From positions 1 to 52,349 of the IMG/VR virus record IMGVR_UViG_3300045257_000113: DNA of 52,349 bases; one strand, written 5' to 3'. Source of the DNA: a virus. Its lineage: Duplodnaviria; Caudoviricetes. The notes under the pieces were generated by a model that worked only from the letters and a program-made list of their open reading frames with translations, was not told the origin of the DNA and did not search any database. This document shows positions 4,556 through 44,530 of this stretch, one piece after another (positions within the stretch are counted from its first letter, which is position 1; each line of letters starts with the position of its first letter). The translations under genes were made by a program, and so were the position numbers.

Positions 4556-4622
4556 GGGTTGCCCGCTATGCGGTCTCCTTAACCTGGTCAGCTCGGGAGA
4601 AGCGCCGCGGGCTACCCCTTTT
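4556..4622 (+). other. Intergenic long irregular hairpin followed by a U-tract
   Basis: GGGTtGCCCGC...GCGGGCtACCC outer stem, TCTCC/GGAGA inner stem, then CTTTT. Confidence 0.5.
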
Positions 4623-4633
4623 AGAAGGCACTC

Positions 4634-5236
4634 ATGTACCTCGACGAACGTAGCGATGCCGCATTTGGAATCAGCAATGCCGCGGGCATGGCTACGGGTC
4701 TGGTATTCCCGACCAACATTCCCACGATTGTTCCTCCAGAGAACCAGCCGCCAGGCCAGGGCGTGGTAGCCAAGGGCGATGGATTGATCCGCCTTGGCTC
4801 GCCGGATGGCGGTACAGCGCCGGCTGGCGTGCTCATTATTCCCTTTGGGACAGGTGGGGCAGGCGCGCAGTTCATGCTTCAGCTCATTGGCTGGTACGCA
4901 TCAAGCTCGAATTTACTCTGGGGAGCGGGGCAGGCGTACAACACCAAGCTTTGGATACCGATACTTCAGGCGCAATACACGATCACGCTGGGGCAAGAGG
5001 TTGGTGATCCCCAGGCGGACATTCAGACCCAGTACAACTTTGCTCAGACCATCGTGCAGACTTACGGACCATCCTTCTGGAACGCCAACTCCACACAGGT
5101 CGATGAGTGGTTCCTGAACGCCCTCAATGGCCAGACTGGCATGATTAAGCACCGTGTCTCGGGCGCTCGCTTTCTAGAGTTTGGCTATTCGCTCATCACA
5201 GCAACCGGGGCCAATTCACTTTGCGGCAAGATTTAG
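4634..5236 (+). CDS. Putative virion structural protein
   Basis: 200 aa ORF between the adaptor and nozzle genes. Confidence 0.5.
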   Translation: MYLDERSDAAFGISNAAGMATGLVFPTNIPTIVPPENQPPGQGVVAKGDGLIRLGSPDGGTAPAGVLIIPFGTGGAGAQFMLQLIGWYASSSNLLWGAGQAYNTKLWIPILQAQYTITLGQEVGDPQADIQTQYNFAQTIVQTYGPSFWNANSTQVDEWFLNALNGQTGMIKHRVSGARFLEFGYSLITATGANSLCGKI

Positions 5237-5245
5237 GAGGAATGG

Positions 5246-7960: not shown

Positions 7961-9000
7961 TGCCTTACGGAAACTACGGTGGTTACGGTCATCCGGGCGG
8001 AAGCTACTCTTCCAACCAGAGCAACAATGCTTCCAGCGGATCGTCTTCAGGGTCGAGCAGTTCCTTCCTTGTGCCTGGAGCGCAGGCTGACTACGGCCAA
8101 CTTCTGGCCATGAACGAGCAGAACTACAAACAACTGCTTCCGCTCTACTCGCAAGGACAGGCCGCGATTGGGCAGGGTGTCGGCGCTGCCGAGAACACGC
8201 TTGGCCTGGGCGGAGCTCTAGGAGGGAGCAACTGGGGCGTGGCGCAACCTGCGGCCACAGCCATCCAGCAGCAATTTGCCGCGACAGGTGGGCAGATTAA
8301 GCAAGGGTTGGCCTCGTCTGGTCTGGGTAACTCGACGATGCTCGGGAACATGGAAAACCAGAACACCCTCTTTGAAGGACAGGCCCTCGGTGGGCTTGGG
8401 GCGCAGCTTGCTCAGACGGCGGCCGGCTACCAGATGCAGGGGCTTGGCATGGGCAACCAGCTCACGCAAGGGCTCTTGGGCAACCTTGCTGGATACCGCT
8501 TCGGCAATACGGCGGGCAATTTGCTGGGCACGCAGAGCGCCAACCAGTCGCTGAACAATACCCGTGGAAGCAGCGGCGGCAATCAAGGCTCGCCAGCGGG
8601 AGGTGGCCGTGGCGGGTATGGCGGCGGTGGAAGTTCTGGTAATCCGGTTGCTGGGGCAGGAGGCGGATTTGGTGGAGGCTTCGGCGGCGGGGCAGGTCTG
8701 CCGAGTTTTGGTGGCCCGCCTGTTTCTACGGCAAGCGGAAATCTGATCGGTGGAGGCAACTTCGGGGATGGATTCACGGGCGGGTATGGCGGGTACGGCA
8801 ATTACGCAGGGCAAGGGCTGCAAAGGAATAATCCGGGGGGCACGACTCAAGGCGCAGGTGAAGGCAGTGGCGAAGGCGGCCCAAACTACGCCATGCAGGA
8901 CGCCTTGCAGTTTTCTCAGCCCGGCTTCGACATCAACCGAGCGCCAGGCATTGTGGCGGAGCAAACACGCATGGCTTACCCAGGACAATCCAAACCATGA
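7960..9000 (+). CDS. Putative DNA ejection/pilot protein (Gly/Gln/Ser-rich)
   Basis: Low complexity, LASSGLGNST-type segment, directly after the nozzle as in podoviruses. Confidence 0.55.
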   Translation: MPYGNYGGYGHPGGSYSSNQSNNASSGSSSGSSSSFLVPGAQADYGQLLAMNEQNYKQLLPLYSQGQAAIGQGVGAAENTLGLGGALGGSNWGVAQPAATAIQQQFAATGGQIKQGLASSGLGNSTMLGNMENQNTLFEGQALGGLGAQLAQTAAGYQMQGLGMGNQLTQGLLGNLAGYRFGNTAGNLLGTQSANQSLNNTRGSSGGNQGSPAGGGRGGYGGGGSSGNPVAGAGGGFGGGFGGGAGLPSFGGPPVSTASGNLIGGGNFGDGFTGGYGGYGNYAGQGLQRNNPGGTTQGAGEGSGEGGPNYAMQDALQFSQPGFDINRAPGIVAEQTRMAYPGQSKP

Positions 9001-9860
9001 GCCGACCAAAGGTTCACTTCATCAGCGGCCTTCCCCGCAGCGGTTCGACGCTGCTCTGTAACCTTTTAGGCCAGAACCCACGCTTCCGGGTTGCGGGCAC
9101 ATCCGGGTTGGTGGATACTTTGGTCGAGGTTAGAAACAAGTGGGACCGGATACCGGAGTTCCGGGCGATGAAACCGCCGATGTCTGAGCGAAAGAAGATC
9201 CTTGCTCTGCGTGGTCTGTTCGACAACTACTTTGCTGGCCACTTGGAGGGGGACGAGAAGTACGGCGATGAAAGCACCCCCTGGATGGGGCACGTCCACT
9301 TCGACAAGTCTCGCTCGTGGCTCGGTCACATGGAAATGCTCGAAATGATCTTGGCAGGGCCAGCGAAAGTCATCGTCTGCGTCCGCGATGTCCGCGACGT
9401 GCTGGCCAGCCTGGAGAAGCTTTGGCGGAAGAACTCGGCGACTCGGCAGCTTCCCTTCGAGCGCGACCACTACATGCAGTGCCAGTCCTTGGCAGGCCGC
9501 TTAGCTCTCTGGACGGCGCACGACGGCATCGTGGGCCTGGCGTACAGCCGGATCAAGGATGCGATTCAGCGGGGGTACAGGGATCGGATGCTGTTTGTGC
9601 AGTACGAGCTTTTCACCAGTTTTCCGACAACTACGTTGCGACGGATTTACCAGTTTGTTGGTGAGCCTTGTCCGGCAGACGGGTTTCACAGTTCATCGAA
9701 TGTGGAGCAACTCACCCACGAAAACGACCTGGCTTACGACTTCCCTGGCCTGCATGAAATCCGCCCAAAGATCGAACCGCAGCCTTCCGACTGGGAGGAA
9801 TCGCTGGGGGAAGCGGGAAGACCGTTTGGCGTCTTGAATAAGCTTTGGGAGATGTCATGA
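8997..9860 (+). CDS. PAPS-dependent sulfotransferase (Sulfotransfer_3-like)
   Basis: 5'-PSB loop FISGLPRSGSTLL, 3'-PB motif VRDVRDVLAS, and LFVQYE...IYQFVG. Confidence 0.9.
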   Translation: MSRPKVHFISGLPRSGSTLLCNLLGQNPRFRVAGTSGLVDTLVEVRNKWDRIPEFRAMKPPMSERKKILALRGLFDNYFAGHLEGDEKYGDESTPWMGHVHFDKSRSWLGHMEMLEMILAGPAKVIVCVRDVRDVLASLEKLWRKNSATRQLPFERDHYMQCQSLAGRLALWTAHDGIVGLAYSRIKDAIQRGYRDRMLFVQYELFTSFPTTTLRRIYQFVGEPCPADGFHSSSNVEQLTHENDLAYDFPGLHEIRPKIEPQPSDWEESLGEAGRPFGVLNKLWEMS

Positions 9861-24062: not shown

Positions 24063-24091
24063 ACTACTGCATGGGCGTAGCAGTAGCCTCG

Positions 24092-24126
24092 GAGCCGTCT
24101 CAGTGTGGAACGGAGACGGCTCTTTT
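24092..24126 (+). terminator. Rho-independent terminator
   Basis: Perfect 10-bp stem GAGCCGTCTC/GAGACGGCTC followed by TTTT; preceded by a CTACTGC/GCAGTAG hairpin. Confidence 0.7.
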
Positions 24127-27870: not shown

Positions 27871-27972
27871 GGCGGCTGCCGGTCTCGCGGCCGGTAAGGA
27901 CTTTTCCCACGGGAGTATCCAGCTCTGAAACCAGAAAGAGCATCGCCAGGTGTAAGAACTGGCCGGCCGCCT
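27871..27972 (+). ncRNA. tRNA-like cloverleaf with non-canonical loops
   Basis: 8-bp closing stem GGCGGCUG/CGGCCGCC, a 6-bp/4-nt arm, an expanded anticodon-position arm, a long extra arm, and a 5-bp arm abutting the closing stem. Confidence 0.5.
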
Positions 27973-29191: not shown

Positions 29192-29307
29192 GGCCCCTAC
29201 TTGTGGTAGGGGCCACTTTACTTATGGCGGCTGGGTTGGATTCCACAAGTACCCCGGCTAGGCCGGATGAGACTTCCGGCTAATGTGAGGCACATCGGCC
29301 AGCCGCC
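29192..29307 (+). ncRNA. Candidate structured RNA with alternative/kissing pairing
   Basis: 9-bp hairpin 29192-29214; 9-bp stem GGCGGCTGG/CCAGCCGCC enclosing hairpins; TACTTGTGG is complementary to CCACAAGTA. Confidence 0.45.
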
Positions 29308-29772: not shown

Positions 29773-29834
29773 TCGCATTTGAATGGTTGTAGGACTGGAC
29801 CTGCCAACAGCGGCAGACAAACGGCCTTACTCGG

Positions 29835-29865
29835 ACCCCGGCTGCTTATGTGGCCGGGGTTTTTC
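29835..29865 (+). terminator. Rho-independent terminator at the convergence of the late (+) and early (-) arms
   Basis: ACCCCGGCTGC-TTAT-GTGGCCGGGGT followed by TTTT. Confidence 0.8.
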
Positions 29866-30753: not shown

Positions 30754-30787
30754 GAGTATCCTTTCAGGACCGCCTGGGTGATCTCAC

Positions 30788-30973
30788 TCAGGCGGTTTTT
30801 GTTTCGTCTCGTGCCGAATAACCTTCGACAACTACTTCAGATTTTCGATTCTTGACTTTCCAAACCTTCATGGGGGACTTTTCCACTTGCCGCTCACTGT
30901 CCCAAACCACAAGCGACACCTTGGCTTCCTGGTTTTGTTTCTGAAGCAGGCTGATCAATTTTTGTACTGTCAT
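30788..30973 (-). CDS. Hypothetical protein
   Basis: MTVQKLISLLQK, a common phage N-terminus. Confidence 0.65.
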   Translation of the reverse strand: MTVQKLISLLQKQNQEAKVSLVVWDSERQVEKSPMKVWKVKNRKSEVVVEGYSARDETKTA

Positions 30974-31210: not shown

Positions 31211-31291
31211 GGCGACGGCTAGTGTTTCACCTTCAGTTAGAGGACTTGAAGCGTCCGTAGTCGTCCTACGGCACCATGCCTAACCGTCGCC
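31211..31291 (-). ncRNA. Candidate multibranch structured RNA
   Basis: 12-bp closing stem GGCGACGGUUAG/CUAGCCGUCGCC (one G-U on the - strand) enclosing CCGUAG/CUACGG and CUUCA/UGAAG hairpins; followed by UUUU. Confidence 0.5.
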
Positions 31292-32606: not shown

Positions 32607-32693
32607 TCGGCTGGCGCCGCTGCGCTACGACGATCTTACCTAGCACGGTTCGGCACGACGCTTTTCAGCGGGTTCCGTGCGTTGACCAGCCAA
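32607..32693 (-). ncRNA. Candidate multibranch structured RNA
   Basis: UUGGCUGG/CCAGCCGA closing stem, GCACGG/CCGUGC, CGCU-GAAA-AGCG (GNRA tetraloop), GUCGU/GCGGC. Confidence 0.5.
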
Positions 32694-34891: not shown

Positions 34892-34921
34892 GACTGTGTA
34901 CTCCGTGGGGTTCAGTCGTCC

Positions 34922-35224
34922 TCAACCTGCCGCTTGGATAGCACTGATCCTGCGCTGGATGGCCAGCAAGATCGAGCCGGGGCTGTCCTTGAGGCCGAAC
35001 TTGGCTGAGAGGCCGCCGCAAATGGTCAGCGCCAAGGCCCGGCCGCGAAGCTGGCTGTGCGACAGTCCCTTGTGACAGCCGAAGTTCTTGCCACACGTTC
35101 TTTGCAGGTAGCCATTGCACGTCGGACAGCGAAACGCTTTGAGCAGCTCAGCCCAGACATCCTCGCTGGCTTGCGACAGATAAATCAGGGTCGGCGCTAT
35201 TTGTCTTTTGGTTTTCGTGGCCAT
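34922..35224 (-). CDS. Hypothetical zinc-ribbon protein
   Basis: AGGAG SD; CPTC...C....H. Confidence 0.6.
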   Translation of the reverse strand: MATKTKRQIAPTLIYLSQASEDVWAELLKAFRCPTCNGYLQRTCGKNFGCHKGLSHSQLRGRALALTICGGLSAKFGLKDSPGSILLAIQRRISAIQAAG

Positions 35225-35234
35225 TGCTGCTCTC

Positions 35235-35441
35235 CTAAAACGGCAGCGACACATCGGGCGCTGGTTCCAACGGTACGGGGTAATCCTCGACTTCTCTCTC
35301 CGTGCTCTCCAGGCGGTGCGGAGTAATCGGGTGCCTGGTGCGATCTCGCATGAACCGCCGCCAGGCTGCGCGCTCCCAGAACCGCCAGGTGGCGATCACG
35401 CGGTTGTCGTCAGTTTTCGCTTCGACGGTCCAGCAGGTCAT
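35235..35441 (-). CDS. Hypothetical protein
   Basis: GGAGG SD, ATGA coupling, ends LPF. Confidence 0.6.
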   Translation of the reverse strand: MTCWTVEAKTDDNRVIATWRFWERAAWRRFMRDRTRHPITPHRLESTEREVEDYPVPLEPAPDVSLPF

Positions 35442-36334: not shown

Positions 36335-36347
36335 TGGCAAAACGTGT

Positions 36348-36620
36348 TTAGCGTCCAAGGGGCACCGCCTTCCCCTTAAAGACTTCCCGCATAACTTGGC
36401 GAGACGTAGCCCTGAATCCTTCAACACCTATCTCGTTGAACGCATTTCTCAGCTTGTCGGCATCCCATCGGCTCTCAATCAGCCAAGCAAAGTTCCGTGA
36501 GTCGAGCGATTCATCACATTCGCTTCTGGCGATCTGCCGCAAGCGGGCATGGCGTTTGGGCCAGTCGCCATCAAAAGGCCAGTAAACCGTGACGAGCCAG
36601 AACAGTTTCTTTGGAAGCAT
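36348..36620 (-). CDS. Hypothetical protein
   Basis: GGAG SD before MLPKKLFW. Confidence 0.55.
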   Translation of the reverse strand: MLPKKLFWLVTVYWPFDGDWPKRHARLRQIARSECDESLDSRNFAWLIESRWDADKLRNAFNEIGVEGFRATSRQVMREVFKGKAVPLGR

Positions 36621-36640
36621 CCATCGTCTCCAAACAGAAA

Positions 36641-36721
36641 GAGCCTGATCCCGCTTCCTTGTCGCCCGCCGCGATGCACCGCAATGGAAGTGCTCGAAGC
36701 CAAGGAAGCGGGGCCAGGCCC
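36641..36721 (-). ncRNA. Long-stem structured element (RNase III-site-like)
   Basis: Perfect 12-bp CCCGCUUCCUUG/CAAGGAAGCGGG plus an 8-bp outer stem with G-U pairs on the - strand; followed by UUUC. Confidence 0.55.
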
Positions 36722-36787
36722 ACAATTATCATAGTGGCCCATTGCGTTAAGTTGCGTCGTCGGCGAAGACAACAGGAACAGTAGAAC

Positions 36788-37024
36788 CTAAACACGCTCG
36801 GGATGCAAGTGCTTTTTCTTCGCTGCTTCAAGAGCAGCTTCCCAGGTGGGGCCGGAGATGTCCGTGAATCTTGGCCAGTGCGTGGCATTAACTGCCCTAT
36901 CCGGATTCGCACTGAATAGGCGAATCGTGCAGCGGTTCTCGAATCCCTCCGACAGCAGCACCGCCCGCGCGTTCTCTCCGAACAGTCGGCGGACCTCGTC
37001 GTCAGCGGCGCAGTGGCTAAGCAT
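36788..37024 (-). CDS. Hypothetical protein
   Basis: Coupled ORF, ends GPTWEAALEAAK. Confidence 0.6.
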   Translation of the reverse strand: MLSHCAADDEVRRLFGENARAVLLSEGFENRCTIRLFSANPDRAVNATHWPRFTDISGPTWEAALEAAKKKHLHPERV

Positions 37025-37259
37025 CGGTCTTCCTTTCCTGGGTAACGGCCAGGGCTTCGGGATCGGCCATGATCGCTGCTAAGTCTTGAGCAGCTTGAAT
37101 CGCGTATCCCAAAATCTGCAACGCTGAACGGGTCGCCAAAAGGCTGTCGCAAAATCGCAGGCATGACCGGCAACCCATCGTGTGCCGAATCATGGCGGCA
37201 ATTGTAGCCCTGCTTTGGTTGCCCTTACCGCGCATCGCTTGGAACTCTTCACAGGTCAT
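37017..37259 (-). CDS. zf-HC2 (anti-sigma zinc finger)-like small protein
   Basis: MTCEEF...HTMGCRSC; AGGAGG SD. Confidence 0.6.
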   Translation of the reverse strand: MTCEEFQAMRGKGNQSRATIAAMIRHTMGCRSCLRFCDSLLATRSALQILGYAIQAAQDLAAIMADPEALAVTQERKTDA

Positions 37260-38119
37260 GGGATTGCCTCCTGGGGCTGTTTGAGCGGTTTCTTTCGGAC
37301 CGATCCTAAAGTTTTTTCGTATTCACTGGGCGGCAAGTGCCGCATGCTGTCGATCTTCAGCGCGGCACAGGCTCGCTTCAGGCCATCAGGGGTGATCTCC
37401 CGCTTTTCGATTTCGGCCGAGAGTTCGTCGTACTGGGCCTGGGTGATGTATTGGCCGTTCTCGATGATCTCGCCATCGCTGGTTGTCGCTGGTGTGGCCT
37501 GCTCGATCTTACCTGTCATCTCGCCGAGCAGCTTGCGGAACTTCGGGTAGAACTCTTCGAGGGCGGCTCGGAGCTTGGCCGTGAAATCGTCCTCAGTCAC
37601 GCGCACGAGCAAAGCCGGCAAGCCTGGGGCGTAGGAAACGAAGTCTACCCACTTCCGCCCGGTAACGATCAATTCACCGTGAACCTGGGGCTTGTACTCG
37701 GCTGGAAGGATCTGCCCCGCCATGAGGTACTCGGCATGAGTCGAAGCATTCGGACATTTCAGCTCGAGCGCTCCGTCACCGTTTACCAGTCCGTCTGGAG
37801 AGCAGCCGAACCGCTTGTCATCCGTCATGCAGAATCCACCGTTGGTGACATTGACGCTGTGATGAGCGGCATACCACCGACGCGCCGACTCTTCGCACTC
37901 TTGCCCCCAGCGCACGGCCCGATTGGTAAACGACTCGGCGTGTTCTGGATAGTAGGGGCTCGTCACGTCGCCGATCAGTTGGGCGGCATACTTCGTCCAC
38001 TGCTTCGATAACTCGCCCTTGGCCGGCGTGATGATCTTGTCGAACTCGCTCGCCGTGGGGATGCCGCGGCGAAGCGTATGCCAGGTTGGCGAGCCTTGCT
38101 CAACGTCGTAAAAGATCAC
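37256..38119 (-). CDS. YqaJ / lambda-exonuclease family nuclease
   Basis: EQGSPTWHTLRRGIPTASEF, GCSPDGLV, LELKCP, YKPQVHG; GTG start overlaps the ERF stop. Confidence 0.92.
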   Translation of the reverse strand: MIFYDVEQGSPTWHTLRRGIPTASEFDKIITPAKGELSKQWTKYAAQLIGDVTSPYYPEHAESFTNRAVRWGQECEESARRWYAAHHSVNVTNGGFCMTDDKRFGCSPDGLVNGDGALELKCPNASTHAEYLMAGQILPAEYKPQVHGELIVTGRKWVDFVSYAPGLPALLVRVTEDDFTAKLRAALEEFYPKFRKLLGEMTGKIEQATPATTSDGEIIENGQYITQAQYDELSAEIEKREITPDGLKRACAALKIDSMRHLPPSEYEKTLGSVRKKPLKQPQEAIP

Positions 38120-38877
38120 TTCTTGCCTGCCTTCCTCTTCGCCGCCTGCCACTCGGCGCGGTACTGCCCCATGATCGTCTCGTATTGAACCTTGGTCAGA
38201 TTCTCCAAGGCATCGAGCTTGAGCCACTTGAAATAGTCTGCCCGGTCAAAGGCAAGCGTGCGGAGAAGGTCGTCAACTTCCTTGAGTTGGTTTTCATCCG
38301 CCATTGCTGTGCGGTTTCCATCATTGTCCTCGCCGGCAATCGTCAGGTTGAAGATCCAGGTCACAAGCCGGCGCTGCCCGTAGCTCCCTGTTGAGACGGC
38401 CCCTTGCACTGCGTTCATTCCGCCAATCGGGTTCCCCTTGGGACCGATCCCATCAACCGGCAGATCAACCTGTGCGTGGTCGATGTGGCCTTCGACGTGG
38501 CGGATCGTACAAATCGTCCGCTTGTGATTTGGTAGCGGCGAGTCGGCCTCGCTAAATGACAGGCTGAAGCCATGCCTGGTGTAAACCGGCTTGGCTACCT
38601 TCTGGACCGTCTCCAGCTTGGCGTACATGGATTTGGTTTGGTCGTTCGTAGCGTCACGGACAACGATTTCCATTTCGGCCTGGGCGTCACGCATCGAACA
38701 GTTGTAGGCGGCCAGTGCACGAGCCGCTTCGAGCCGCTCATGCAAGCCGACGAGTTTTTCCAGTTCAGCGGCCGGCAGTTTCAATTCGACGGCTCGTTCG
38801 ATAATCGCCAGGCTGCCCTTCTGATGGACAGGCGGCTTGTCGGGCAAGGCATCAGTTACTTCTGGTTCTACTGTCAT
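38116..38877 (-). CDS. erf: ERF-family single-strand annealing protein
   Basis: YAKLETV...HGFSL, QGAVSTGSYGQRRL...FNL..GEDNDG. Confidence 0.85.
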   Translation of the reverse strand: MTVEPEVTDALPDKPPVHQKGSLAIIERAVELKLPAAELEKLVGLHERLEAARALAAYNCSMRDAQAEMEIVVRDATNDQTKSMYAKLETVQKVAKPVYTRHGFSLSFSEADSPLPNHKRTICTIRHVEGHIDHAQVDLPVDGIGPKGNPIGGMNAVQGAVSTGSYGQRRLVTWIFNLTIAGEDNDGNRTAMADENQLKEVDDLLRTLAFDRADYFKWLKLDALENLTKVQYETIMGQYRAEWQAAKRKAGKK

Positions 38878-38894
38878 GGGTTGGCCTCGTGGGG

Positions 38895-39215
38895 TTAGGC
38901 GGTTGGTTGTTCTTGTAACGCTTTGACTTCGTGATCGGCGAGAATCTTGCCGTAGCGCAGAAGCGAGTCGATCATCCATTCATAGCCGCAGAACCCAGCC
39001 GACTTCTTGCGGATCTGCGCTGCGTCCGATTTGCTGACTTCGCGAACTCGGACGCACGCACACCAGCCATCGGACCATCGGTAAGTGTGCGAGCCGATTA
39101 ACTCGGCTGGTATGTCACGCAGACTGCGGATCACAGCCCATAGTCGATCTTCACCGGACCATTTGCCATTCCACGACGGCGCGGAAGGCATGGTCAACGA
39201 AAAACAAACGAGCAT
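38895..39215 (-). CDS. Phage hypothetical protein
   Basis: MP..SWNGKWSG...YRWSDGW...GFCGYEWMIDS; GGAGG SD. Confidence 0.75.
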   Translation of the reverse strand: MLVCFSLTMPSAPSWNGKWSGEDRLWAVIRSLRDIPAELIGSHTYRWSDGWCACVRVREVSKSDAAQIRKKSAGFCGYEWMIDSLLRYGKILADHEVKALQEQPTA

Positions 39216-39238
39216 GGTTGGCCTCCAGGGTTAGAGAA

Positions 39239-39309
39239 AGTGGACATCCGGCGTTGACCCGGAACCCCCGCTTAGCAGCGGAATGCTACTGCCCTTACAC
39301 CATGCCCAC
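39239..39309 (-). tRNA. tRNA-like gene with a 4-nt (anticodon-deleted) loop; no encoded CCA
   Basis: GUGGGCA/UGUCCAC acceptor, U8, GUGU/GCAU D-stem with GG in the loop, CCGCU-GCUA-AGCGG, GGGU variable region, UCCGG-GUCAACG-CCGGA T-arm. Confidence 0.65.
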
Positions 39310-39317
39310 AAATCGAG

Positions 39318-39680
39318 TCAATCACGGTATCGGTCAGGGTCGGGCTCACTTGCCTCTGCGTGCTCAGCCACGTACTGTTGCAGCCGGTCAATCAGATTAT
39401 CGTCATTGTCGATTTGCTTGAGCATCGCGCGGCGCTCTTCATCCGTGGCAGTACGGCCGATCTCACCAATGGCCGTATGAAGCACACGGATGTTTTGCAG
39501 TTCGATCTCGCCGCCCTCAGCAGGGTCGCCAGGGTCGCTAGAATGCGGCTGGTACATGGTCGCTGGCGTGAACTCGCTGATCGAGTAATCCAGGCCAAGG
39601 GTAATGGAGCAGAGTTCCCCGCGAAACTCGAACTCCTCGTCTTCCCATTCCAGGTGTCCAGAAAATGCTGGTCGTTTCAT
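39318..39680 (-). CDS. Acidic hypothetical protein
   Basis: GGGAG SD, ATGA coupling. Confidence 0.7.
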   Translation of the reverse strand: MKRPAFSGHLEWEDEEFEFRGELCSITLGLDYSISEFTPATMYQPHSSDPGDPAEGGEIELQNIRVLHTAIGEIGRTATDEERRAMLKQIDNDDNLIDRLQQYVAEHAEASEPDPDRYRD

Positions 39681-39865
39681 GCTCCGCTCCCTTCTGCTGG
39701 CTCATCTTGGTAGTACCGCTCCTCGATCTCCTGCGAGCTGAGTAGCGGCTGTCCATGGCTCTCACGCCAGTCGTTGATCGCTTGGGCGCGTTGCAGGATC
39801 TTCTCGTCCTCGACGATCTTGGCACGGGCTAGTTCCTGCCGGTTGCGTTCATCGGTCAGAGACAT
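39677..39865 (-). CDS. Hypothetical protein
   Basis: GAGGAG SD. Confidence 0.65.
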   Translation of the reverse strand: MSLTDERNRQELARAKIVEDEKILQRAQAINDWRESHGQPLLSSQEIEERYYQDEPAEGSGA

Positions 39866-40046
39866 TCGATTCCTCCTCGGAGTGAAACGCCAGCATTTGC
39901 CTCAAAAAAACACGCTCGGTAGCAAACTCGGCTCCATTGTGGGACCAGTGCTCAAGCTTCACCAAAAGCTGCGCTGCGAATAGTCGCCATTGCCTACTCT
40001 CTCGTTGCAGCGATGCTACCAGGTCGCCTAGGGTCATGTCGGTCAT
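39849..40046 (-). CDS. Hypothetical protein
   Basis: AAAGGAGG SD before MTDMTLG. Confidence 0.6.
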   Translation of the reverse strand: MTDMTLGDLVASLQRESRQWRLFAAQLLVKLEHWSHNGAEFATERVFLRQMLAFHSEEESNVSDR

Positions 40047-40068
40047 TGGTCCTCCTTTGGGCGCGGTG

Positions 40069-40323
40069 TTAAATCTCACGCTCAATGCGTCCACCATCAG
40101 CGGGATTGCCGATCAAGAGCCAGCGCGAGCCATCGCTGCCGATCACGCGCAGCCGCTCATCGTCAATGACCTCGACCCCCACAATCGTAGCTTGTTGTTC
40201 TTCCCCCGTTACCGGACCGGGCAGGGTGAATGCTACGGGCAAATCCCAGTTGTCCGGGTCTTGTACCTTGGAGAGCATCACCATGCCCTCTTCGACTTTG
40301 CACGTTCGGTTCTGCCAGATCAT
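40069..40323 (-). CDS. Hypothetical protein
   Basis: GAGGA SD. Confidence 0.65.
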   Translation of the reverse strand: MIWQNRTCKVEEGMVMLSKVQDPDNWDLPVAFTLPGPVTGEEQQATIVGVEVIDDERLRVIGSDGSRWLLIGNPADGGRIEREI

Positions 40324-40373
40324 GGCGTTCCTCGCGGTGTTAAATCACTCTCGACGAAAGCGGCCTTCCCTTC

Positions 40374-40765
40374 GGCATCCCTATCCTAAACAGGGCTTTG
40401 CTCTGGCTGGTGATTCCTCTAGCCGTTTCCGAGCACGTCACTGTAGCAAAGAGAGGGCGCCGGCTTATGCCTTTAGGGATGCCATTAGGACCCAGGACGT
40501 AGGCCGCATTGCAGGATCAACTACCTGCCCGGAGCTCTGGGATTTCGCCGTGCCTCTACACCCGCGCTGGGTAACAGCGCGTCTACTTCCACGGGTCGGG
40601 CCAATCCGTGGCGCGGTCCGCTTTTCGCCGGCAGCGGTCCGTGATCTTAACCGTGGCAGCACAGGTCCAAGATTTGGCTTGCAATGTGTTGTGAACATGA
40701 TAAGCTGATCTCGTCTGTGCTTGCCGCACCGAACTCGGGCCAGGGGTATTACCAACCTCTGGCCC
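40374..40765. ncRNA. Candidate large structured non-coding region
   Basis: No credible ORF; dense stems, including GGCATCCCTA/TAGGGATGCC, CTTTGCT/AGCAAAG, GCAGG/CCTGC, CGCGCTG/CAGCGCG, CCACGG/CCGTGG, AGCACAG/CTGTGCT and GGGCCAG/CTGGCCC. Confidence 0.5.
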
Positions 40766-40794
40766 TTCCGTTTTATCCTCACCTTAAAGCAAAA

Positions 40795-41013
40795 TCAAGT
40801 CGAACTGCCCGGCTCTGGCAATGGGTCAAGCCCGGCTGCCAGTTCGGTCACGAACTTTGCCATTTGCCGCCGCACTGCTTGGATGGGCCATTCGCACCCG
40901 TCAAGCACGAAAGCTTCGGCTTCCCCGCCTATGTTGATCTGCCAGGGCTTTAGCGGCCACGCTGGGCTATTGCGGAACCAATCCTCAACGGCTTGTTCTA
41001 ATGTGCGTTGCAT
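40795..41013 (-). CDS. Hypothetical protein
   Basis: GAAAGGGG SD before MQRTLEQ. Confidence 0.6.
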   Translation of the reverse strand: MQRTLEQAVEDWFRNSPAWPLKPWQINIGGEAEAFVLDGCEWPIQAVRRQMAKFVTELAAGLDPLPEPGSST

Positions 41014-41032
41014 GGATTCCCCTTTCAGGGTT

Positions 41033-41067
41033 AAAACCCCCTGCCCTCTCGGCTGAGCGGCAGGGGG
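41033..41067 (-). terminator. Rho-independent terminator candidate
   Basis: CCCCCTGCC/GGCAGGGGG 9-bp stem followed by TTTT on the - strand. Confidence 0.6.
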
Positions 41068-41081
41068 CGAACATGAGGAAG

Positions 41082-41807
41082 TTACTCGGCAAATTGCTCT
41101 GCCACGCGCTGAAGGACGCCATCCATGATGTACTGTTGCCCGGTGCAGCAGCGGCCCCACCATGTCCCATAGGCGTTATCCAGGACGCATTCCCCGATTC
41201 CCTTGAGTTTGTCCGCGAGCCAATTGGTGACGCGCCACCATTCGTAAATCTCGGCTTCGTGCTCGCAAGCATTATCACTCACAGCGTCTCGGTAGTCCTT
41301 GAGGCCGTCAATCGTTTCATCGTCCATATTGGCGAGCAGGGCAAGGCGCAGCGTTTCGATGGTCTCATTATCTCGGCAATCGATTGAAGCGTCAGTAAGC
41401 AATTCGACCATTGCCTCACGGCTGAGCGCCCAGGGGTCAGGGTCAGGCTTGTCGATTCCTTTGTCTTCGAGCCATTCCCAGCATTGCTCAACGGTCCAGT
41501 CGGAAGAATCGACTGTCCGGTTGGCCACGCTGTCATAGTCCCACTCGCGGGCCATTTCGCCGGATAGCTCGCCGCTCATGCCGGCCTTGAGCAAATCATC
41601 CACAAGGCAGGAATCGCAGTGCAGGATATCCCGGTCCTGGTAGATTTCGGCGAGTTCTTCGATGCGGATTGCCCGGCGTTCTTCGGGAGTCGCCTTGCGC
41701 CAAGTCTGGCGGTCGGTGCGGATGCGAAGCTTGTCGCCGTGCGAATCACCCTTGTAGGTGATGCTCGTGCCACGCGGCCAGAGCTGTTTTGTGTGCGTTT
41801 CGGTCAT
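41082..41807 (-). CDS. Acidic early hypothetical protein
   Basis: GGAGG SD; C-terminal EIYEWWRVTNWLADKL...WWGRCCTGQ. Confidence 0.75.
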   Translation of the reverse strand: MTETHTKQLWPRGTSITYKGDSHGDKLRIRTDRQTWRKATPEERRAIRIEELAEIYQDRDILHCDSCLVDDLLKAGMSGELSGEMAREWDYDSVANRTVDSSDWTVEQCWEWLEDKGIDKPDPDPWALSREAMVELLTDASIDCRDNETIETLRLALLANMDDETIDGLKDYRDAVSDNACEHEAEIYEWWRVTNWLADKLKGIGECVLDNAYGTWWGRCCTGQQYIMDGVLQRVAEQFAE

Positions 41808-41890
41808 AATTCAGATCCTCCCATGTTCTAGGTACACTAAGGCGAAGTTTACCCGGCTACAACAGGTAGCGGGGTGTCAAATTGCGTGTG

Positions 41891-42175
41891 TCATTTAGGC
41901 TTAAGCTTTATGGCGTCGTATCCGCATTTTGTGCATTCCCAGCCAGTGTCTAGTTCTCCAAGGCAGATCGGGCAGAAGTCCTGTTTTACCAGCTCCTTGC
42001 CTAATTTGCCGGGGCTTTGTTCGTCCAAAATTGCTTCTTCGTCTCCAGTCCACCATTCACGGTCACATTCGTGACAATGCTTCATGACGTTTCCTGGCTT
42101 GATTTCCAGGCGTGAGAGCTTGCCCACTGTTTTGCACCAAACGCAGCTGCCAGCGGTCTTTTCCCATTCCGGCAT
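41891..42175 (-). CDS. Double zinc-ribbon protein
   Basis: CVWC, CHEC, CPIC and CTKC motifs; GAGGA SD. Confidence 0.65.
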   Translation of the reverse strand: MPEWEKTAGSCVWCKTVGKLSRLEIKPGNVMKHCHECDREWWTGDEEAILDEQSPGKLGKELVKQDFCPICLGELDTGWECTKCGYDAIKLKPK

Positions 42176-42182
42176 GTCGTCC

Positions 42183-42353
42183 TCATTTCGCGTGATAAAC
42201 AGCATGGATCTTGCGTCCGCAGTAGAGAGTTGCGTCAATAGTCTGGTTAGGCAGGATGTGCTCTACCAGCCACGCAACAGCGTCACGAAGCGAGCTGAAG
42301 TCAGGGCCGACACGGTAAGAGCCCTGCCTAATGGTCCATTTCTTCATGTTCAT
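42183..42353 (-). CDS. Hypothetical protein (56 aa, not in ORF track)
   Basis: MNMKKWTIRQGSYRVGPDFSSLRDAVAWL...; AAGGG SD. Confidence 0.5.
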   Translation of the reverse strand: MNMKKWTIRQGSYRVGPDFSSLRDAVAWLVEHILPNQTIDATLYCGRKIHAVYHAK

Positions 42354-42432
42354 TTCCCTTTCAATTCAGAGTGAGTAGGGGTATAGGCCACTTTGGGGCG
42401 TCCAAACGCCTTGGCGGGCCTGTTTTGGCGAT

Positions 42433-42783
42433 TCAGGCTAATAATTCGAGCTGTTCGGCCGCGTCAGACACCTTGCGGTTCAACTCGGCCAACGCCTCAG
42501 CCTTCATATCGTCGTAATATCCGCCCGGTTGCTTGAAGTCGGCCTCAGAGCGATACGAGCAGCAGCCAAGGTAGTCATCGCCCTCAAATTCGTTCCAATG
42601 GGCACTAACGCGGATTGTGCACCATGCCCATTCGTTGCCCGATTCGAGCTGATCTTCAATCCATTTCTCGGCTTTGCTGTCTTCCTCAGGGCTGATCGCA
42701 GAGCAATTGCCTTTGATCGATGCATCCTCAGGCAAGCACTCAAGCCTAAACTCTACTTCGGCTTCCGTCAATTTGCGGACCAT
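42433..42783 (-). CDS. Acidic early hypothetical protein
   Basis: GGGAG SD; WAWC..V.A.W...G.DYLGCCSY...YYDDM. Confidence 0.75.
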   Translation of the reverse strand: MVRKLTEAEVEFRLECLPEDASIKGNCSAISPEEDSKAEKWIEDQLESGNEWAWCTIRVSAHWNEFEGDDYLGCCSYRSEADFKQPGGYYDDMKAEALAELNRKVSDAAEQLELLA

Positions 42784-42829
42784 GTATCACTCCCTCATAT
42801 TCAAGGCGACTCCCAGACTGCACAGCGCA

Positions 42830-42878
42830 GCCCTTGCTTGACCCGCCCGCAACCGATGTCCAGGCGGGTAGCAAGAGC
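42830..42878 (-). other. 18-bp bulged hairpin (RNase III-site-like)
   Basis: GCUCUUGCU/AGCAAGGGC plus ACCCGCCUG/CGGGCGGGU, with G-U pairs on the - strand. Confidence 0.5.
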
Positions 42879-42882
42879 AGAG

Positions 42883-43074
42883 CTAAACCCGCTCAATTGA
42901 CCTCAGCACAATCCCCGTACCAGGAATGGCGTCGTACAGGATATGCAAACCCCACAGCGTAGACCGATGGTGCAATAGGACATAGCCACGCTGCCAACCG
43001 CAGATGACGTTCCAGCCATGCCGCTTGGCCCGCTGCACAGCATCAGACACACTCCAAGCCCCGCGAATGCTCAT
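42883..43074 (-). CDS. Hypothetical protein
   Basis: GGGGAG SD. Confidence 0.5.
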   Translation of the reverse strand: MSIRGAWSVSDAVQRAKRHGWNVICGWQRGYVLLHHRSTLWGLHILYDAIPGTGIVLRSIERV

Positions 43075-43099
43075 GTTCTGTACTCCCCAAGGGCGACCA

Positions 43100-43318
43100 C
43101 TAAACCAACCACGCCAACAACAGCGCGGTCACCACGCACGCTACCAACTCCCATACCCAAGAGCGGCCACAGCAGCCCTTGTGCAAGGCTCGGTACTGCG
43201 CCCGCACTGCATCCAAGCGACGTAGGTCATCCCACTCAAAGTCAGCATACACGTCCGCTGTGGCCGGCAGCGATACTGGCTCGCTCATGTTGTCCATCGC
43301 ACACCCCACTGTTAGCAC
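43100..43318 (-). CDS. Hypothetical protein with a C-terminal TM helix
   Basis: First ORF of the - arm; start uncertain. Confidence 0.4.
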   Translation of the reverse strand: MLTVGCAMDNMSEPVSLPATADVYADFEWDDLRRLDAVRAQYRALHKGCCGRSWVWELVACVVTALLLAWLV

Positions 43319-43576: not shown

Positions 43577-43608
43577 TTGCTGCGCTTTTGCTGCGCTTTT
43601 GCTGCGCT
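43577..43608. repeat. Tandem 11-bp repeat TTGCTGCGCTT x3
   Basis: Seen directly in the divergent intergenic region. Confidence 0.85.
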
Positions 43609-43639
43609 AGGGACAAATGAGAATGTCGGCATTGGGAGT

Positions 43640-43711
43640 TGTATCACAAATAGGGCTATACTGGACCATTTGGTTTGTGATACACTTTGGGGAGCAGGCA
43701 TTTGTGATACA
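43640..43711 (+). promoter_or_regulatory. Three copies of the 11-bp site TGTATCACAAA (one forward, two reverse) around a TATACT -10 element
   Basis: 43640-43650, 43674-43684 and 43701-43711; TATACT at 43657-43662; the last copy abuts the SD of the RHH gene. Confidence 0.7.
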
Positions 43712-43721
43712 GGAGAAAGTG

Positions 43722-44321
43722 ATGAGCGAGGTGTTGCATTTGCGTTGGGAGAAGGATGAGGAGATAGCCGCGAAGAAGGCGGCTGATCGGTGCGGGGAGA
43801 AATATTCGTCATGGCTTAGACGGGTGATTGGAGAGGCAGCCGCTCGTGGGGACGAGGTGCTATGCGCGGTGGTTCAGGATTCTAAGAGCTATGAGCCGGT
43901 GGTTGCTGTGGAAAAGATACCAAGGCAGCTTGACGATGCTATGCCGGACAAGTTGCCGCCGAGCTACGCGCCTGGATCGACTGGTCAGCCGAACATTGAG
44001 GGAACCAGGTTTAGACAGAAGGAGCGTGGTCAGTTGTGTGCGCGTTGCAGGCGGATTGGTGCGCCAGCGTGTCCTGCTTGTCGGAAGCTGGTAGAATTGG
44101 GGCATGGAGATACTGGACCCTCCGGGGCTACTACTGGATTACAGATGGGTGCAGGAGAACCCCCAGGAGCCGGTGCCGTGCCCGTGGCAGGAGGAGCCGT
44201 TGAGGAACCTACGGTCGTTCTACAAGGACAATCCGCGGGGGTTTCTGGAGCAGATGGTGCGGTTAGAGACGGCATATTCGGCGGAGAAGGCGGAAGCGGC
44301 GAAGAGGGCGGGGCCGGCTGA
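43722..44321 (+). CDS. Ribbon-helix-helix DNA-binding protein with a CxxC...CxxC zinc motif
   Basis: VLHLRW.KDE...AKKAADRCG..YSSWLRRVI RHH pattern; AGGAG SD; CARC...CPAC. Confidence 0.6.
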   Translation: MSEVLHLRWEKDEEIAAKKAADRCGEKYSSWLRRVIGEAAARGDEVLCAVVQDSKSYEPVVAVEKIPRQLDDAMPDKLPPSYAPGSTGQPNIEGTRFRQKERGQLCARCRRIGAPACPACRKLVELGHGDTGPSGATTGLQMGAGEPPGAGAVPVAGGAVEEPTVVLQGQSAGVSGADGAVRDGIFGGEGGSGEEGGAG

Positions 44322-44403
44322 GCCGGCGAACTTGCCCAAGGACGAGGGGACGGAGCGGATCGAAGAGGTGATCGACAGGTTTATTGAGGACATGAAGAGC
44401 TAG
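44104..44403 (+). CDS. Possible terminase small subunit
   Basis: 99-aa helical protein upstream of TerL; call rests on position only. Confidence 0.35.
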   Translation: MEILDPPGLLLDYRWVQENPQEPVPCPWQEEPLRNLRSFYKDNPRGFLEQMVRLETAYSAEKAEAAKRAGPAEPANLPKDEGTERIEEVIDRFIEDMKS

Positions 44404-44406
44404 TTC

Positions 44407-44530
44407 GGGCATGTGGGGGAAGTCGAGACCCGGCCATTTGTTGGAGATGGCTGCACAGCGGCAGAGGCTCCACTAGATACGCCTATGCAGTAAGACTGTG
44501 CGTGCAGGCTTGACACGCCTGCCGTGCCTG
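44407..44530 (+). ncRNA. tRNA-like cloverleaf with a very long extra arm
   Basis: GGGCAUG/CGUGCCU acceptor-like stem, U8, GGG/CCC, GCCAU/AUGGC with a 9-nt loop, GCACAG/CUGUGC arm, and GCAGGC-UUGACAC-GCCUGC directly abutting the acceptor 3' strand. Confidence 0.5.

What the first reader, a model, noticed from the sequence alone, without database searches (positions are those of the whole stretch)
4556..44530. Genome-wide set of structured intergenic RNAs, several of them tRNA mimics
Seen: many of the larger intergenic gaps are filled almost exactly by a GC-rich fold: 4556-4617(+), 27871-27972(+), 29192-29307(+), 31211-31291(-), 32607-32693(-), 36641-36721(-), 39239-39309(-), 40374-40765, 42830-42878(-) and 44407-44530(+). 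G-U pairs mostly fall on the transcribed strand. Four share a GGCG/GGCUG...CAGCC/CGCC closing stem, and most are followed by a short U-rich tract and then the next start. Many are multibranched, unlike terminators. Inference: this is the best candidate for an undescribed system, a panel of phage ncRNAs. They could be tRNA-like punctuation cut by RNase P/Z or RNase III, or released decoys for host tRNA-targeting defences or tRNA-binding proteins.
Basis: partly seen in the sequence, partly recalled or inferred. Interest (0 to 1): 0.8.

Follow-up and report, generated by a model that had tools for sequence, protein, structure and literature searches.

The report
Phage intergenic hairpins plus one tRNA-mimic
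The gaps between genes of this uncultivated soil phage do hold unusually stable RNA folds, but most look like ordinary terminator-type stem-loops, and only one is a real tRNA look-alike, part of a small family of phage tRNA-shaped RNAs that lack a normal anticodon loop.

Summary
Observation partly confirmed. Intergenic gaps fold better than coding sequence (23 gaps mean z -1.02 vs 159 coding windows +0.06, p 5e-5; 22/182 vs 54/3000 windows). Seven of the 9 short listed elements have z <= -2.67 on the transcribed strand. They start 3-13 nt after a stop codon in 7 of 10, and 7 of 10 carry a strand-specific U-rich tail.

They are not one system. I see simple terminators, long hairpins, three branched folds with a shared GGCGRC...GYCGCC bracket, two weak ones (32607-32693, 44407-44530), and a 470-nt non-coding stretch whose fold signal lies on the opposite strand.

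"Several tRNA mimics" fails. Only 39239-39309(-) is tRNA-like: Rfam tRNA 24 bits, below the cut-off of 29, with none in coding controls. A family-specific model finds no second copy in the window.

That one element is well supported. Four other viral contigs carry tRNA-shaped relatives, with 35/35 acceptor and 22/22 D-stem pairs kept through compensatory changes, and none of the five has a 5-bp/7-nt anticodon arm.

The phage has no close relatives and no RNA data were available, so function is inferred.

The parts
39239..39309 (-). 71-nt tRNA-like RNA. It has a 7-bp acceptor stem, a D arm, a T arm with loop GUCAACG, and a long stem capped by a 4-nt loop (6 nt in ARAGORN's parse) where the anticodon arm should be. 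It starts 8 nt after the upstream stop and ends 23 nt before the next start.
   Evidence: Rfam RF00005 scores 24.0 bits over the full model 1-71, with no such hit in coding controls. Relaxed ARAGORN calls these exact borders with a 2-nt 'anticodon'. Relatives in 4 viral contigs show compensatory changes.
27871..27972 (+). Branched fold: an 8-bp GC-rich closing stem and four predicted hairpins, followed by a UUAUCUC tail. It lies between two small membrane-protein genes.
   Evidence: z is -3.16 on the sense strand and -0.46 on the antisense strand. Closing stem P is 0.88 in context. It matches the bracket motif. No homologue was found.
29192..29214 (+). Simple 10-bp hairpin, terminator-like, with a weak tail.
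   Evidence: Listed by the terminator scan and seen in the fold.
29226..29307 (+). Branched fold with a 9-bp closing stem and a UUCUCUUU tail.
   Evidence: z is -3.89 for 29192-29307. It matches the bracket motif. The closing stem has only P 0.29 in context.
31211..31291 (-). Y-shaped fold with a 12-bp closing stem and a UUUU tail. It starts 3 nt after the stop of a RusA-like gene.
   Evidence: z is -4.35. Closing stem P is 0.98. Bracket motif. Tail. RusA assignment.
32607..32693 (-). Weakly supported fold upstream of an HNH endonuclease gene.
   Evidence: z is -1.68, with 12/200 shuffles as good. HNH assignment.
36641..36721 (-). Long imperfect hairpin of 31 pairs with a UUUCUGUU tail. A candidate terminator and/or double-strand RNase site.
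   Evidence: z is -4.87. P is 0.98. Tail has 6 T of 8.
42830..42878 (-). 49-nt hairpin of 21 pairs with no U tail. A candidate processing or stabilising hairpin.
   Evidence: z is -6.56 sense and -4.16 antisense. Tail has 3 T of 8.
4556..4617 (+). 62-nt irregular hairpin with a CUUUU tail, in the virion-gene block.
   Evidence: z is -2.67 sense and -4.44 antisense. P is 0.98. Tail.
40324..40794 (+). 471-nt stretch with no convincing ORF. The fold signal is on the + strand, antisense to the flanking genes, and it ends in a +-oriented terminator-like hairpin at 40737-40765.
   Evidence: z is -3.11 on + and -1.22 on -. Terminator scan. ORFs have no family match. No direct repeats.
44407..44530 (+). 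Listed element that is not better than chance.
   Evidence: z is -1.45, with 21/200 shuffles as good. No U tail.
24091..24123 (+).
   Evidence: Fold of 24063-24157; gap z -2.28.
41037..41068 (-).
   Evidence: Fold of 41014-41081(-), z -2.51; gap z -2.86.
29833..29862 (+). Terminator at the convergent junction of the rightward and leftward gene blocks.
   Evidence: Terminator scan; fold.
30766..30799 (+). Strong hairpin with its U tail on the + strand, although it lies between leftward genes.
   Evidence: Terminator scan; z -4.88 on + and -4.20 on -.

Best explanation
The listed regions are a mixture, not one system.

(1) Most are cis-acting stem-loops that punctuate the phage's long operons. 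They sit just after stop codons on the transcribed strand and are followed by a short U-rich tract. They most likely act as partial intrinsic terminators or attenuators, as 3'-end protecting hairpins, or (for the long ones) as processing hairpins. The same genome also has textbook terminators of this polarity. Three elements (27871, 29226, 31211) are branched variants with a GC-rich GGCGRC/GYCGCC closing stem next to the U tract.

(2) One element, 39239-39309 on the minus strand, is a true tRNA-shaped RNA embedded in the early operon. It keeps a 7-bp acceptor stem, a D arm, and a T arm that abuts the acceptor strand. The anticodon arm is replaced by a longer stem with a 4-nt loop (6 nt in ARAGORN's parse), so it cannot decode.

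I infer that it folds into the tRNA L-shape and is cut out of the transcript by the host's tRNA-processing enzymes (RNase P at the 5' end, a 3' tRNA-end nuclease after the discriminator base). That would release a small non-decoding RNA and, as a side effect, split the operon mRNA. Related copies lie in non-coding tRNA islands of other phages, so the released RNA, rather than the mRNA cut, is probably the selected product.

Shown: the structure statistics, strand polarity, tRNA-model similarity, and covariation among five sequences. Inferred: termination, processing, release, and any trans function.
For: Structure enrichment in gaps.

Strand-specific U tails in 7/10 elements against 1/10 on the other side.

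Sense-strand preference of z-scores in 7/9, and of G-U pairs (31 vs 18).

Canonical terminators with the same polarity in this phage (24091-24123, 29833-29862, 41037-41068) and in the syntenic relative L035.

Heterogeneity:
- No common internal structure among the bracket elements.
- No Rfam family for any gap except tRNA.

tRNA-like element:
- RF00005 scores 24.0 bits over the full model. E is 0.0022 on its own gap and 0.061 over 20 gaps times 4227 families.
- 0 tRNA hits in 20 coding stretches of equal total size.
- Relaxed ARAGORN gives the same borders.
- An exact 18-nt T-arm search in viral contigs gave 9 loci. Four of them match the whole family model: 99.3, 48.8, 27.2 and 27.1 bits.
- On the alignment of the window element with its closest relative, 16/16 pairs hold, and 4 acceptor pairs changed on both sides. 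Slid controls pair at only 37-53%.
- Over the five sequences, 35/35 acceptor pairs and 22/22 D-stem pairs are standard, with 2-4 pair types per acceptor position.
- None of the five has a 5-bp stem with a 7-nt loop in the anticodon position.
- Free MFE gives a cloverleaf for the G001 and G002 relatives (exact) and nearly for G003; it does not for the window element or G004.

Contexts:
- Between same-strand ORFs in the window and in G003.
- 133 nt downstream of a canonical tRNA (66.2 bits) in G004.
- Among odd tRNA-like sequences in G001.
Against: - No transcript data exist for this phage, so no termination, cleavage or release has been seen.
- The U tracts are short (3-6 U of 8). Branched stems are not the classical terminator form, and the consensus scan does not call them.
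- Next genes start 10-27 nt downstream, so full termination would silence them.
- The tRNA score is below Rfam's cut-off (24 vs 29 bits). Two whole-window searches with speed filters missed the element.
- In +-60 nt context the thermodynamic model does not predict the element's acceptor stem (P 0.00).
- The family has only five sequences. All were found through an identical T arm, so T-arm conservation is by ascertainment.
- The covariance model misaligned the 5' end of one member (G001); its acceptor stem was set by hand.
- The positionally equivalent gap of the nearest syntenic relative is a plain hairpin, not tRNA-like.
- Two listed elements are not significant at all.
Confidence: 0.6

Rival explanations
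1. The gap folds are one coordinated panel of phage non-coding RNAs, several of them tRNA mimics. They would act as RNase P/Z or RNase III punctuation, or be released as decoys for host tRNA-targeting defences.
For: - Gap folds are real and strand-specific.
- One element is truly tRNA-like and has relatives.
- Three share a bracket motif above chance.
- GGTGTAAG occurs in both the tRNA-like element and the 27871 element: 3 matches against 0.79 expected, with 6/100 shuffles as high.
- Phage tRNAs countering tRNA-targeting defences are in print (PMC10264068 and PMC11555353; search listing and start of abstract only).
Against: - Only 1 of 20 gaps hits the tRNA model.
- The family model, run with filters off, finds no second copy; the next best hit is 12.9 bits, in coding sequence.
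- The bracket elements share no internal structure.
- No tRNA-processing or tRNA-repair enzyme, nor any other RNA enzyme, is recognisable among 99 ORFs.
- Canonical terminators account for several of the best-folding gaps.
Confidence: 0.08
2. Nothing functional beyond ordinary terminators. The tRNA-like element would be a decaying tRNA pseudogene, and the branched folds chance products of GC-rich sequence.
For: - Perfect long-range inverted repeats of 8 bp or more are common: 75 observed against 61 expected, and 62 of them lie in coding sequence.
- Coding windows can fold as well as the gaps.
- The tRNA score is below the cut-off.
- Two listed elements are not significant.
- 29226-29307 and 39239-39309 lose their closing stems in context.
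Against: - Acceptor and D stems stay fully paired through many compensatory changes in five otherwise dissimilar sequences. Decay would not preserve that.
- All five have non-canonical anticodon arms, rather than a random mix.
- The bracket motif and its intergenic placement exceed chance.
- The strand-specific U tails exceed chance.
Confidence: 0.17
3. The three GGCGRC...GYCGCC branched elements (27871, 29226, 31211) are a phage-specific family of cis-regulatory RNAs. Examples would be binding sites for a phage or host protein, or sites that control read-through. They would be distinct from plain terminators.
For: - Bracket count of 6 against 1.48+-1.31, with three of the six in gaps that make up 6.75% of the genome.
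- All three lie within 3.5 kb.
- All are followed by UU.
- Closing stems are stable in context for two of the three.
Against: - No shared internal sequence or structure.
- A GC-rich stem base before a U tract is what any terminator has.
- No homologues to test covariation.
- One of the three loses its closing stem in context.
Confidence: 0.12

Closest known systems
Rho-independent (intrinsic) terminators and attenuators inside phage operons
   Same: The stem-loop has a GC-rich base, lies on the transcribed strand right after a stop codon, and is followed by a U-rich tract. Textbook examples occur in the same genome and in relative L035.
   Different: Several stems are branched or very long (up to 124 nt). 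The U tracts are short and interrupted. The next gene starts 10-27 nt later, so at most partial termination is compatible with expression. The consensus scan does not call them.
Intercistronic RNase III processing hairpins of T7-like phages (recalled from memory, not from a call)
   Same: Long imperfect hairpins of 21-31 predicted pairs between genes of one operon (36641-36721, 42830-42878, 4556-4617). After a cut they would leave a protective 3' hairpin.
   Different: There is no sequence or family match, no evidence of cleavage, and no known host. Two of the three also have terminator-like tails.
tRNA (Rfam RF00005) and phage-encoded tRNAs
   Same: Cloverleaf with a 7-bp acceptor stem, a D arm with a GG-containing loop, and a 5-bp T stem with a 7-nt loop directly abutting the acceptor strand. 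The full-length model match scores 24 bits. Relatives lie next to real tRNA genes.
   Different: - The anticodon arm is not 5 bp plus 7 nt in any of the five family members.
- The T loop starts with G instead of U.
- The score is below the Rfam cut-off.
- ARAGORN does not call it by default.
- No encoded CCA end.
Non-decoding tRNA-like RNAs: tmRNA tRNA-like domain, bacterial Y-RNA tRNA-like module, mascRNA, T4 stable 'species' RNAs (all recalled). Also RNase P substrates other than tRNA: phage M3 RNA, P1/P7 C4 RNA, operon mRNAs (passages of PMC11143913).
   Same: It has the acceptor/T-arm part of the tRNA shape that RNase P and the 3'-end enzymes recognise, but no usable anticodon. In the window it is embedded in a longer transcript.
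   Different: No sequence or Rfam match to any of these families. Here the complete cloverleaf is kept, including a D arm. Processing is not shown.
Catalogue of 10,006 candidate structured RNAs in viruses and phages, including 'tRNAs or tRNA-like structures' and terminators (PMC10690425; abstract and passages read)
   Same: Same kind of object (structured intergenic RNAs of IMG/VR phage contigs) and the same classes: tRNA-like, terminators, and folds upstream of genes.
   Different: I could not establish whether this family is in that catalogue. The four contig numbers do not occur in the 6 supplementary files that could be searched, and 3 files were not searched.

Membership tests
tRNA (Rfam RF00005), for 39239-39309(-) | Score at or above the curated gathering threshold (29 bits) | tested here: not met
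   24.0 bits over the full model 1-71. Missed by the filtered whole-window searches.
tRNA (Rfam RF00005), for 39239-39309(-) | Cloverleaf: 7-bp acceptor stem, D arm, and a 5-bp T stem with a 7-nt loop abutting the acceptor 3' strand | tested here: met
   ARAGORN drawing, Rfam alignment, and pairs kept in relatives.
tRNA (Rfam RF00005), for 39239-39309(-) | Anticodon arm of 5 bp with a 7-nt loop carrying U33 and a 3-nt anticodon | tested here: not met
   ARAGORN parses a 6-nt loop with a 2-nt 'anticodon'. RNAfold gives 7 bp plus a 4-nt loop. The Rfam alignment needs deletions.
tRNA (Rfam RF00005), for the other nine listed elements | Any match to the tRNA model or to tRNA finders | tested here: not met
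   No tRNA hit at E <= 10 in the 19 other gaps. ARAGORN finds 0. The family model finds nothing above 12.9 bits.
Intrinsic terminator (consensus: GC-rich hairpin, loop 3-8 nt, at least 5 U in 8 nt) | Match to the consensus scan | tested here: inconclusive
   Met by 29192-29214, 29833-29862, 30766-30799 and 40737-40765. The branched or long elements cannot meet the loop criterion. Their tails have 4-6 U of 8 in 7/10.
Intrinsic terminator | RNA 3' ends formed at the U tract | not testable with these tools
   No RNA run holds this phage.
RNase III-type processing hairpin | About 20 bp or more of near-continuous double-stranded RNA | tested here: met
   Predicted pairs: 31 (36641-36721), 21 (42830-42878) and 21 (4556-4617). 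This is prediction only; cleavage is not testable here.
Any described RNA family (Rfam 15: ribozymes, riboswitches, Y-RNA-like, tmRNA, phage sRNAs) | Covariance-model match | tested here: not met
   0 at gathering threshold. 0 at E <= 5 on the whole window. Only weak chance-level hits besides tRNA on the 20 gaps.
One paralogous RNA family for the bracket elements (27871, 29226, 31211, 32607) | Shared consensus structure beyond the closing stem | tested here: not met
   The consensus fold keeps only 9 closing-stem pairs, with covariation term 0.

The most novel reading that the evidence does not exclude
39239-39309(-) and its four relatives define an undescribed family of phage-encoded tRNA-shaped RNAs that lack an anticodon. 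They keep acceptor, D and T arms, have a T loop beginning with G, and carry a capped stem where the anticodon loop should be. The host's tRNA-processing enzymes would cut them out. The released RNAs would act in trans, for example as decoys or competitors for host factors or defence nucleases that recognise the tRNA elbow or acceptor end rather than the anticodon. When placed between cistrons, as here, they would also serve as tRNA-type punctuation of the operon mRNA.
Probability: 0.3. Interest if true: 0.7.

Novelty: new variant of a known kind. Interest (0 to 1): 0.45.

Why it matters
The broad claim of a new system of many tRNA mimics does not hold, and that saves follow-up effort. Most of these gaps are ordinary operon punctuation.

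The one real tRNA look-alike is worth a closer look. Phage tRNAs are now seen as tools against host defences that cut or deplete tRNAs. A conserved tRNA shape that cannot decode would point to a function through shape alone: processing signal, decoy, or enzyme competitor. It is small, has clear predicted ends, and can be tested directly with RNase P, RNase Z and CCA-adding enzyme in vitro.

The 470-nt non-coding stretch, with its fold signal on the opposite strand and its own terminator, is a second, unexplained lead: a possible antisense RNA.

Tried and rejected
- Close relatives for covariation of the gaps. None were found.
  - Best protein identities were 47% terminase, 36% ERF, 34% protease and 48/47/39% YqaJ in viral, metagenome and genome collections.
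  - GenBank phages gave no DNA match, no protein match to the 904-aa ORF, and terminase matches only at about 22% identity.
  - blastn of 20 gaps against 170 fetched loci (1.36 Mb) gave nothing below E 0.08.
- Expression data. No RNA holder was listed; the only run holding the stretch is a DNA soil metagenome that may be the source.
- Syntenic relative L035. Its gaps are simple terminator hairpins. The gap in the position of the tRNA-like element is not tRNA-like, and the adjacent proteins are not similar.
- MITE or mobile-repeat reading of the bracket elements. Rejected because they share no internal similarity.
- Self-cleaving ribozymes, riboswitches and Y-RNA-like RNAs. No Rfam hit.
- attP or tRNA integration-site remnant. 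No integrase among 99 ORFs.
- Hidden ORFs in 40324-40794. The ORFs there have no Pfam or PHROG family and look like out-of-frame junk. No repeats suggest iterons.
- Search for homologues of the 27871 element by its 17-nt hairpin. Two chance matches only.
- Search for more family members through the D-arm motif. Nine loci were returned, but only the already known contig matches the whole model. The combined D/T pattern found only that contig.
- Conserved protein neighbour of the tRNA-like family. None: the contexts are portal, holin/scaffold/endonuclease VII, and recombination genes.
- Catalogue supplement check. No occurrence of the four contig numbers in 6 files; 3 files could not be searched.
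- My crude gene caller failed on the 67% GC locus L003, so its gaps were not used.
Full report
WHAT THE WINDOW IS

It is a 52,349-bp IMG/VR virus record, classed linear and about 69% complete. It comes from soil, judging by the only run that holds it.

The gene layout is as follows.
- Rightward virion and lysis genes run to 29772. They include an SU10-type adaptor, a sulfotransferase and a papain-like protease.
- A leftward early block runs from 29869 to 43318. It includes a PAPS-reductase-like gene, a RusA-like gene, an HNH endonuclease, a YqaJ exonuclease and an ERF annealing protein.
- Rightward genes resume at about 43722 and include the terminase at 45008-46852.

GenBank phages gave no DNA match, no protein match to the 904-aa ORF, and terminase matches only at about 22% identity.

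The best relatives in viral, metagenome and genome collections share only 34-48% protein identity. Two loci (L035, L003) are syntenic at about 40-48% amino-acid identity. So orthologous gaps cannot be aligned.

CHECKING THE OBSERVATION

I folded each short listed element on both strands against 200 dinucleotide shuffles.
- Seven of nine have sense-strand z between -2.67 and -6.56.
- 32607-32693 (-1.68) and 44407-44530 (-1.45) do not beat chance.
- Sense z is more negative than antisense in 7 of 9. The contrast is clearest for 27871-27972 (-3.16 vs -0.46) and 39239-39309 (-2.87 vs -1.01).

- 23 same-strand gaps have mean z -1.02, against +0.06 for 159 length-matched coding windows (p 5.3e-5).
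- 6/23 gaps versus 2.5% of coding windows have z <= -2.

A grid scan of 3,484 windows of 90 nt gave approximate z <= -2.5 in 22/182 mostly intergenic windows, against 54/3000 coding-only windows (odds ratio 7.5, p 6e-11). So the enrichment is real.

Several cautions apply.
- Coding sequence also holds strong folds.
- A perfect closing stem of 8 bp or more is not rare: 75 observed against 61.3+-6.5 in shuffles, and 62 of them lie in coding sequence.
- 'Multibranched' is only an MFE prediction, made for 5 of 10 elements.

ANATOMY SHARED BY THE ELEMENTS

- Seven of ten begin 3-13 nt after the upstream stop codon. Seven end 10-27 nt before the next start.
- Seven of ten have at least 4 U in the 8 nt after the stem on the transcribed strand. 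Only one of ten does on the opposite side (P 2e-5).
- The GGCGRC...GYCGCC bracket occurs 6 times against 1.48 expected. Three of the six are the gap elements 27871, 29226 and 31211. These three, plus 32607, share nothing inside the bracket.
- In +-60 nt context the closing stems keep P 0.85-0.98, except 29226-29307 (0.29) and 39239-39309 (0.00).

- 24091-24123(+), 41037-41068(-) and 29833-29862(+).
- Two hairpins have their U tail on the + strand although they lie in the leftward block: 30766-30799 and 40737-40765.
- The gaps of relative L035 are also simple terminator hairpins.

A GC-rich stem base, a U tail and strand polarity are what terminator-type stem-loops have. I therefore read most of the list as partial terminators or attenuators, as 3'-end protecting hairpins, or (for the long ones) as processing hairpins.

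The three long hairpins (36641-36721, 42830-42878, 4556-4617; 21-31 predicted pairs) are also plausible substrates of a double-strand RNase, as in T7-like phages (recalled). None of this is shown, because no RNA run holds this phage.

THE tRNA CLAIM

The standard searches gave the following.
- ARAGORN finds no tRNA.
- Rfam finds nothing at gathering threshold or at E <= 5 on the whole window.
- With the laxer filters used for short input, the gap 39216-39317 gives a full-length match to the tRNA model at exactly 39239-39309(-). It scores 24.0 bits (cut-off 29), with E 0.0022.
- It is the only tRNA hit among 20 gaps, where E is 0.061 over 4227 families.
- Twenty coding stretches of the same total size give no tRNA hit.

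Relaxed ARAGORN calls the same borders. It draws a 7-bp acceptor stem, a 4-bp D stem, a T arm abutting the acceptor strand, and a 6-nt 'anticodon' loop. At that threshold it also makes 44 other calls, mostly in coding sequence.

FINDING RELATIVES OF THE tRNA-LIKE ELEMENT

An exact search for the 18-nt T arm in viral contigs returned 9 loci.

I built a covariance model from the window element and its closest match, using the acceptor, D and T stems only.
- It scores four of the nine loci over their full length: 99.3, 48.8, 27.2 and 27.1 bits. The other five match only the T arm.
- On the two-sequence alignment all 16 pairs hold. Four acceptor pairs change on both sides and one changes on one side. 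Slid controls pair at only 37-53%.
- For one member (G001) the model chose a wrong 5' register, and I set the acceptor stem by hand.
- With that correction, the five sequences have 35/35 standard acceptor pairs with 2-4 pair types per position, and 22/22 standard D-stem pairs.
- Free MFE folding gives a cloverleaf for two relatives and nearly for a third.

In the anticodon position none of the five has 5 bp plus 7 nt. RNAfold predicts:
- 7 bp plus a 4-nt loop in the window element;
- 6 bp plus a 6-nt loop in G003 (a 7-bp plus 4-nt-loop pairing is my own reading of the sequence, not a tool output);
- 4 bp plus 8 nt in G004;
- 4 bp plus 4 nt in G001;
- 7 bp plus 4 nt, with an extra arm, in G002.

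Default ARAGORN misses all of these elements.

Three caveats apply. There are only five sequences. T-arm identity is by ascertainment. Two further pattern searches found no new member.

CONTEXT OF THE FAMILY

- In the window and in G003 the element lies between two same-strand ORFs, a few nucleotides after a stop codon and about 20 nt before the next start.
- In G004 it lies 133 nt downstream of a canonical tRNA (66.2 bits), in a non-coding island of about 650 nt.
- In G001 it lies among other odd tRNA-like sequences.
- Neighbouring proteins differ: recombination genes here, portal in G003, and holin/scaffold/endonuclease VII in G004. No protein is shared with the window.

The family also occurs where there is no mRNA to punctuate. 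I therefore infer that the released RNA is itself the product, and that cutting the operon mRNA is a side effect in the window.

The same family model, run over the whole window with filters off, finds only this element. The next best hit is 12.9 bits, in coding sequence. So the other listed elements are not members.

THE 40324-40794 STRETCH

- It has no ORF with a family match and no direct repeats.
- On the strand of the flanking genes it folds no better than shuffles (z -1.22). On the + strand z is -3.11, with 0 of 100 shuffles as good.
- It ends in a + oriented terminator-like hairpin at 40737-40765.

A + strand (antisense) RNA of up to about 400 nt is the simplest reading. I found no promoter and no homologue, so it stays unexplained.

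COMPARISON WITH WHAT IS KNOWN

- Structured intergenic RNAs of phages, including 'tRNAs or tRNA-like structures' and terminators, have been catalogued at scale from IMG/VR (PMC10690425; abstract and passages read). I could not tell whether this family is listed there, because only 6 of its supplementary files could be searched.
- RNase P is known to cut phage and operon RNAs that are not tRNAs (passages of PMC11143913).
- Phage tRNAs that counter tRNA-targeting defences are in print (PMC10264068, PMC11555353, PMC12409363, PMC12851939; search listing and start of abstract only).
- Non-decoding tRNA-like RNAs exist elsewhere: the tmRNA tRNA-like domain, the bacterial Y-RNA module, mascRNA and T4 stable RNAs (recalled). 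None matches here by Rfam.

VERDICT

The 'panel of tRNA mimics' reading is mostly not supported.

What remains is a set of ordinary operon stem-loops, one well-supported non-decoding tRNA-like RNA with relatives in other phages, and one unexplained antisense-structured non-coding stretch.

Noticed in passing
window 43577-43722: The divergent control region between the leftward and rightward blocks has two notable repeats. An 11-nt unit is repeated 2.9 times at 43577-43608. A 12-nt perfect inverted repeat lies at 43640-43651 / 43700-43711, with a third similar copy between the two arms. These look like operator sites around a promoter for a repressor-type switch.
   Followed up: partly
window 30766-30799 and 40737-40765: Two strong hairpins inside the leftward gene block have their U tails on the + strand. 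They could stop antisense or read-through transcription coming from the rightward block.
   Followed up: partly
window 51323-52348 and 655-1638; L003 7798-9967: In the syntenic relative L003, homologues of the window's last gene and of its second gene are adjacent. The two ends of the record are therefore probably contiguous (circularly permuted or nearly complete genome), despite the 'linear, 69% complete' label.
   Followed up: no
window 47371-47460 (+), 22291-22380, 25501-25590, 33541-33630: These coding windows have fold scores as extreme as the best gaps. The top window of the whole scan lies in the portal gene, with approximate z -4.6.
   Followed up: no
L229 (G001), reverse-complement coordinates 1218-1363 and about 1655-1748: The relative phage record G001 has a cluster of odd tRNA-like sequences that default ARAGORN misses. 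One is called tRNA-Pro with a 52-nt intron when introns are allowed. Another gives a weak tRNA-Sec-like Rfam hit (21.4 bits).
   Followed up: partly
window 27831-27986 (+): An ORF runs through the 27871-27972 fold and ends in TGA overlapping the ATG of the next gene. The only in-frame start-like codon after the ribosome-binding motif is CTG at 27876. It is probably not a gene, but the frame is open.
   Followed up: no
window 8997-9860 and 29869-30753: A sulfotransferase gene lies among the tail genes. A PAPS-reductase-like gene lies at the end of the early block. The pair could point to sulfur-related modification chemistry.
   Followed up: no
window 39187-39194 vs 39299-39306: The 5' part of the tRNA-like element is complementary (8 nt, perfect) to the start-codon region of the downstream gene. 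An alternative pairing could therefore mask that start.
   Followed up: no
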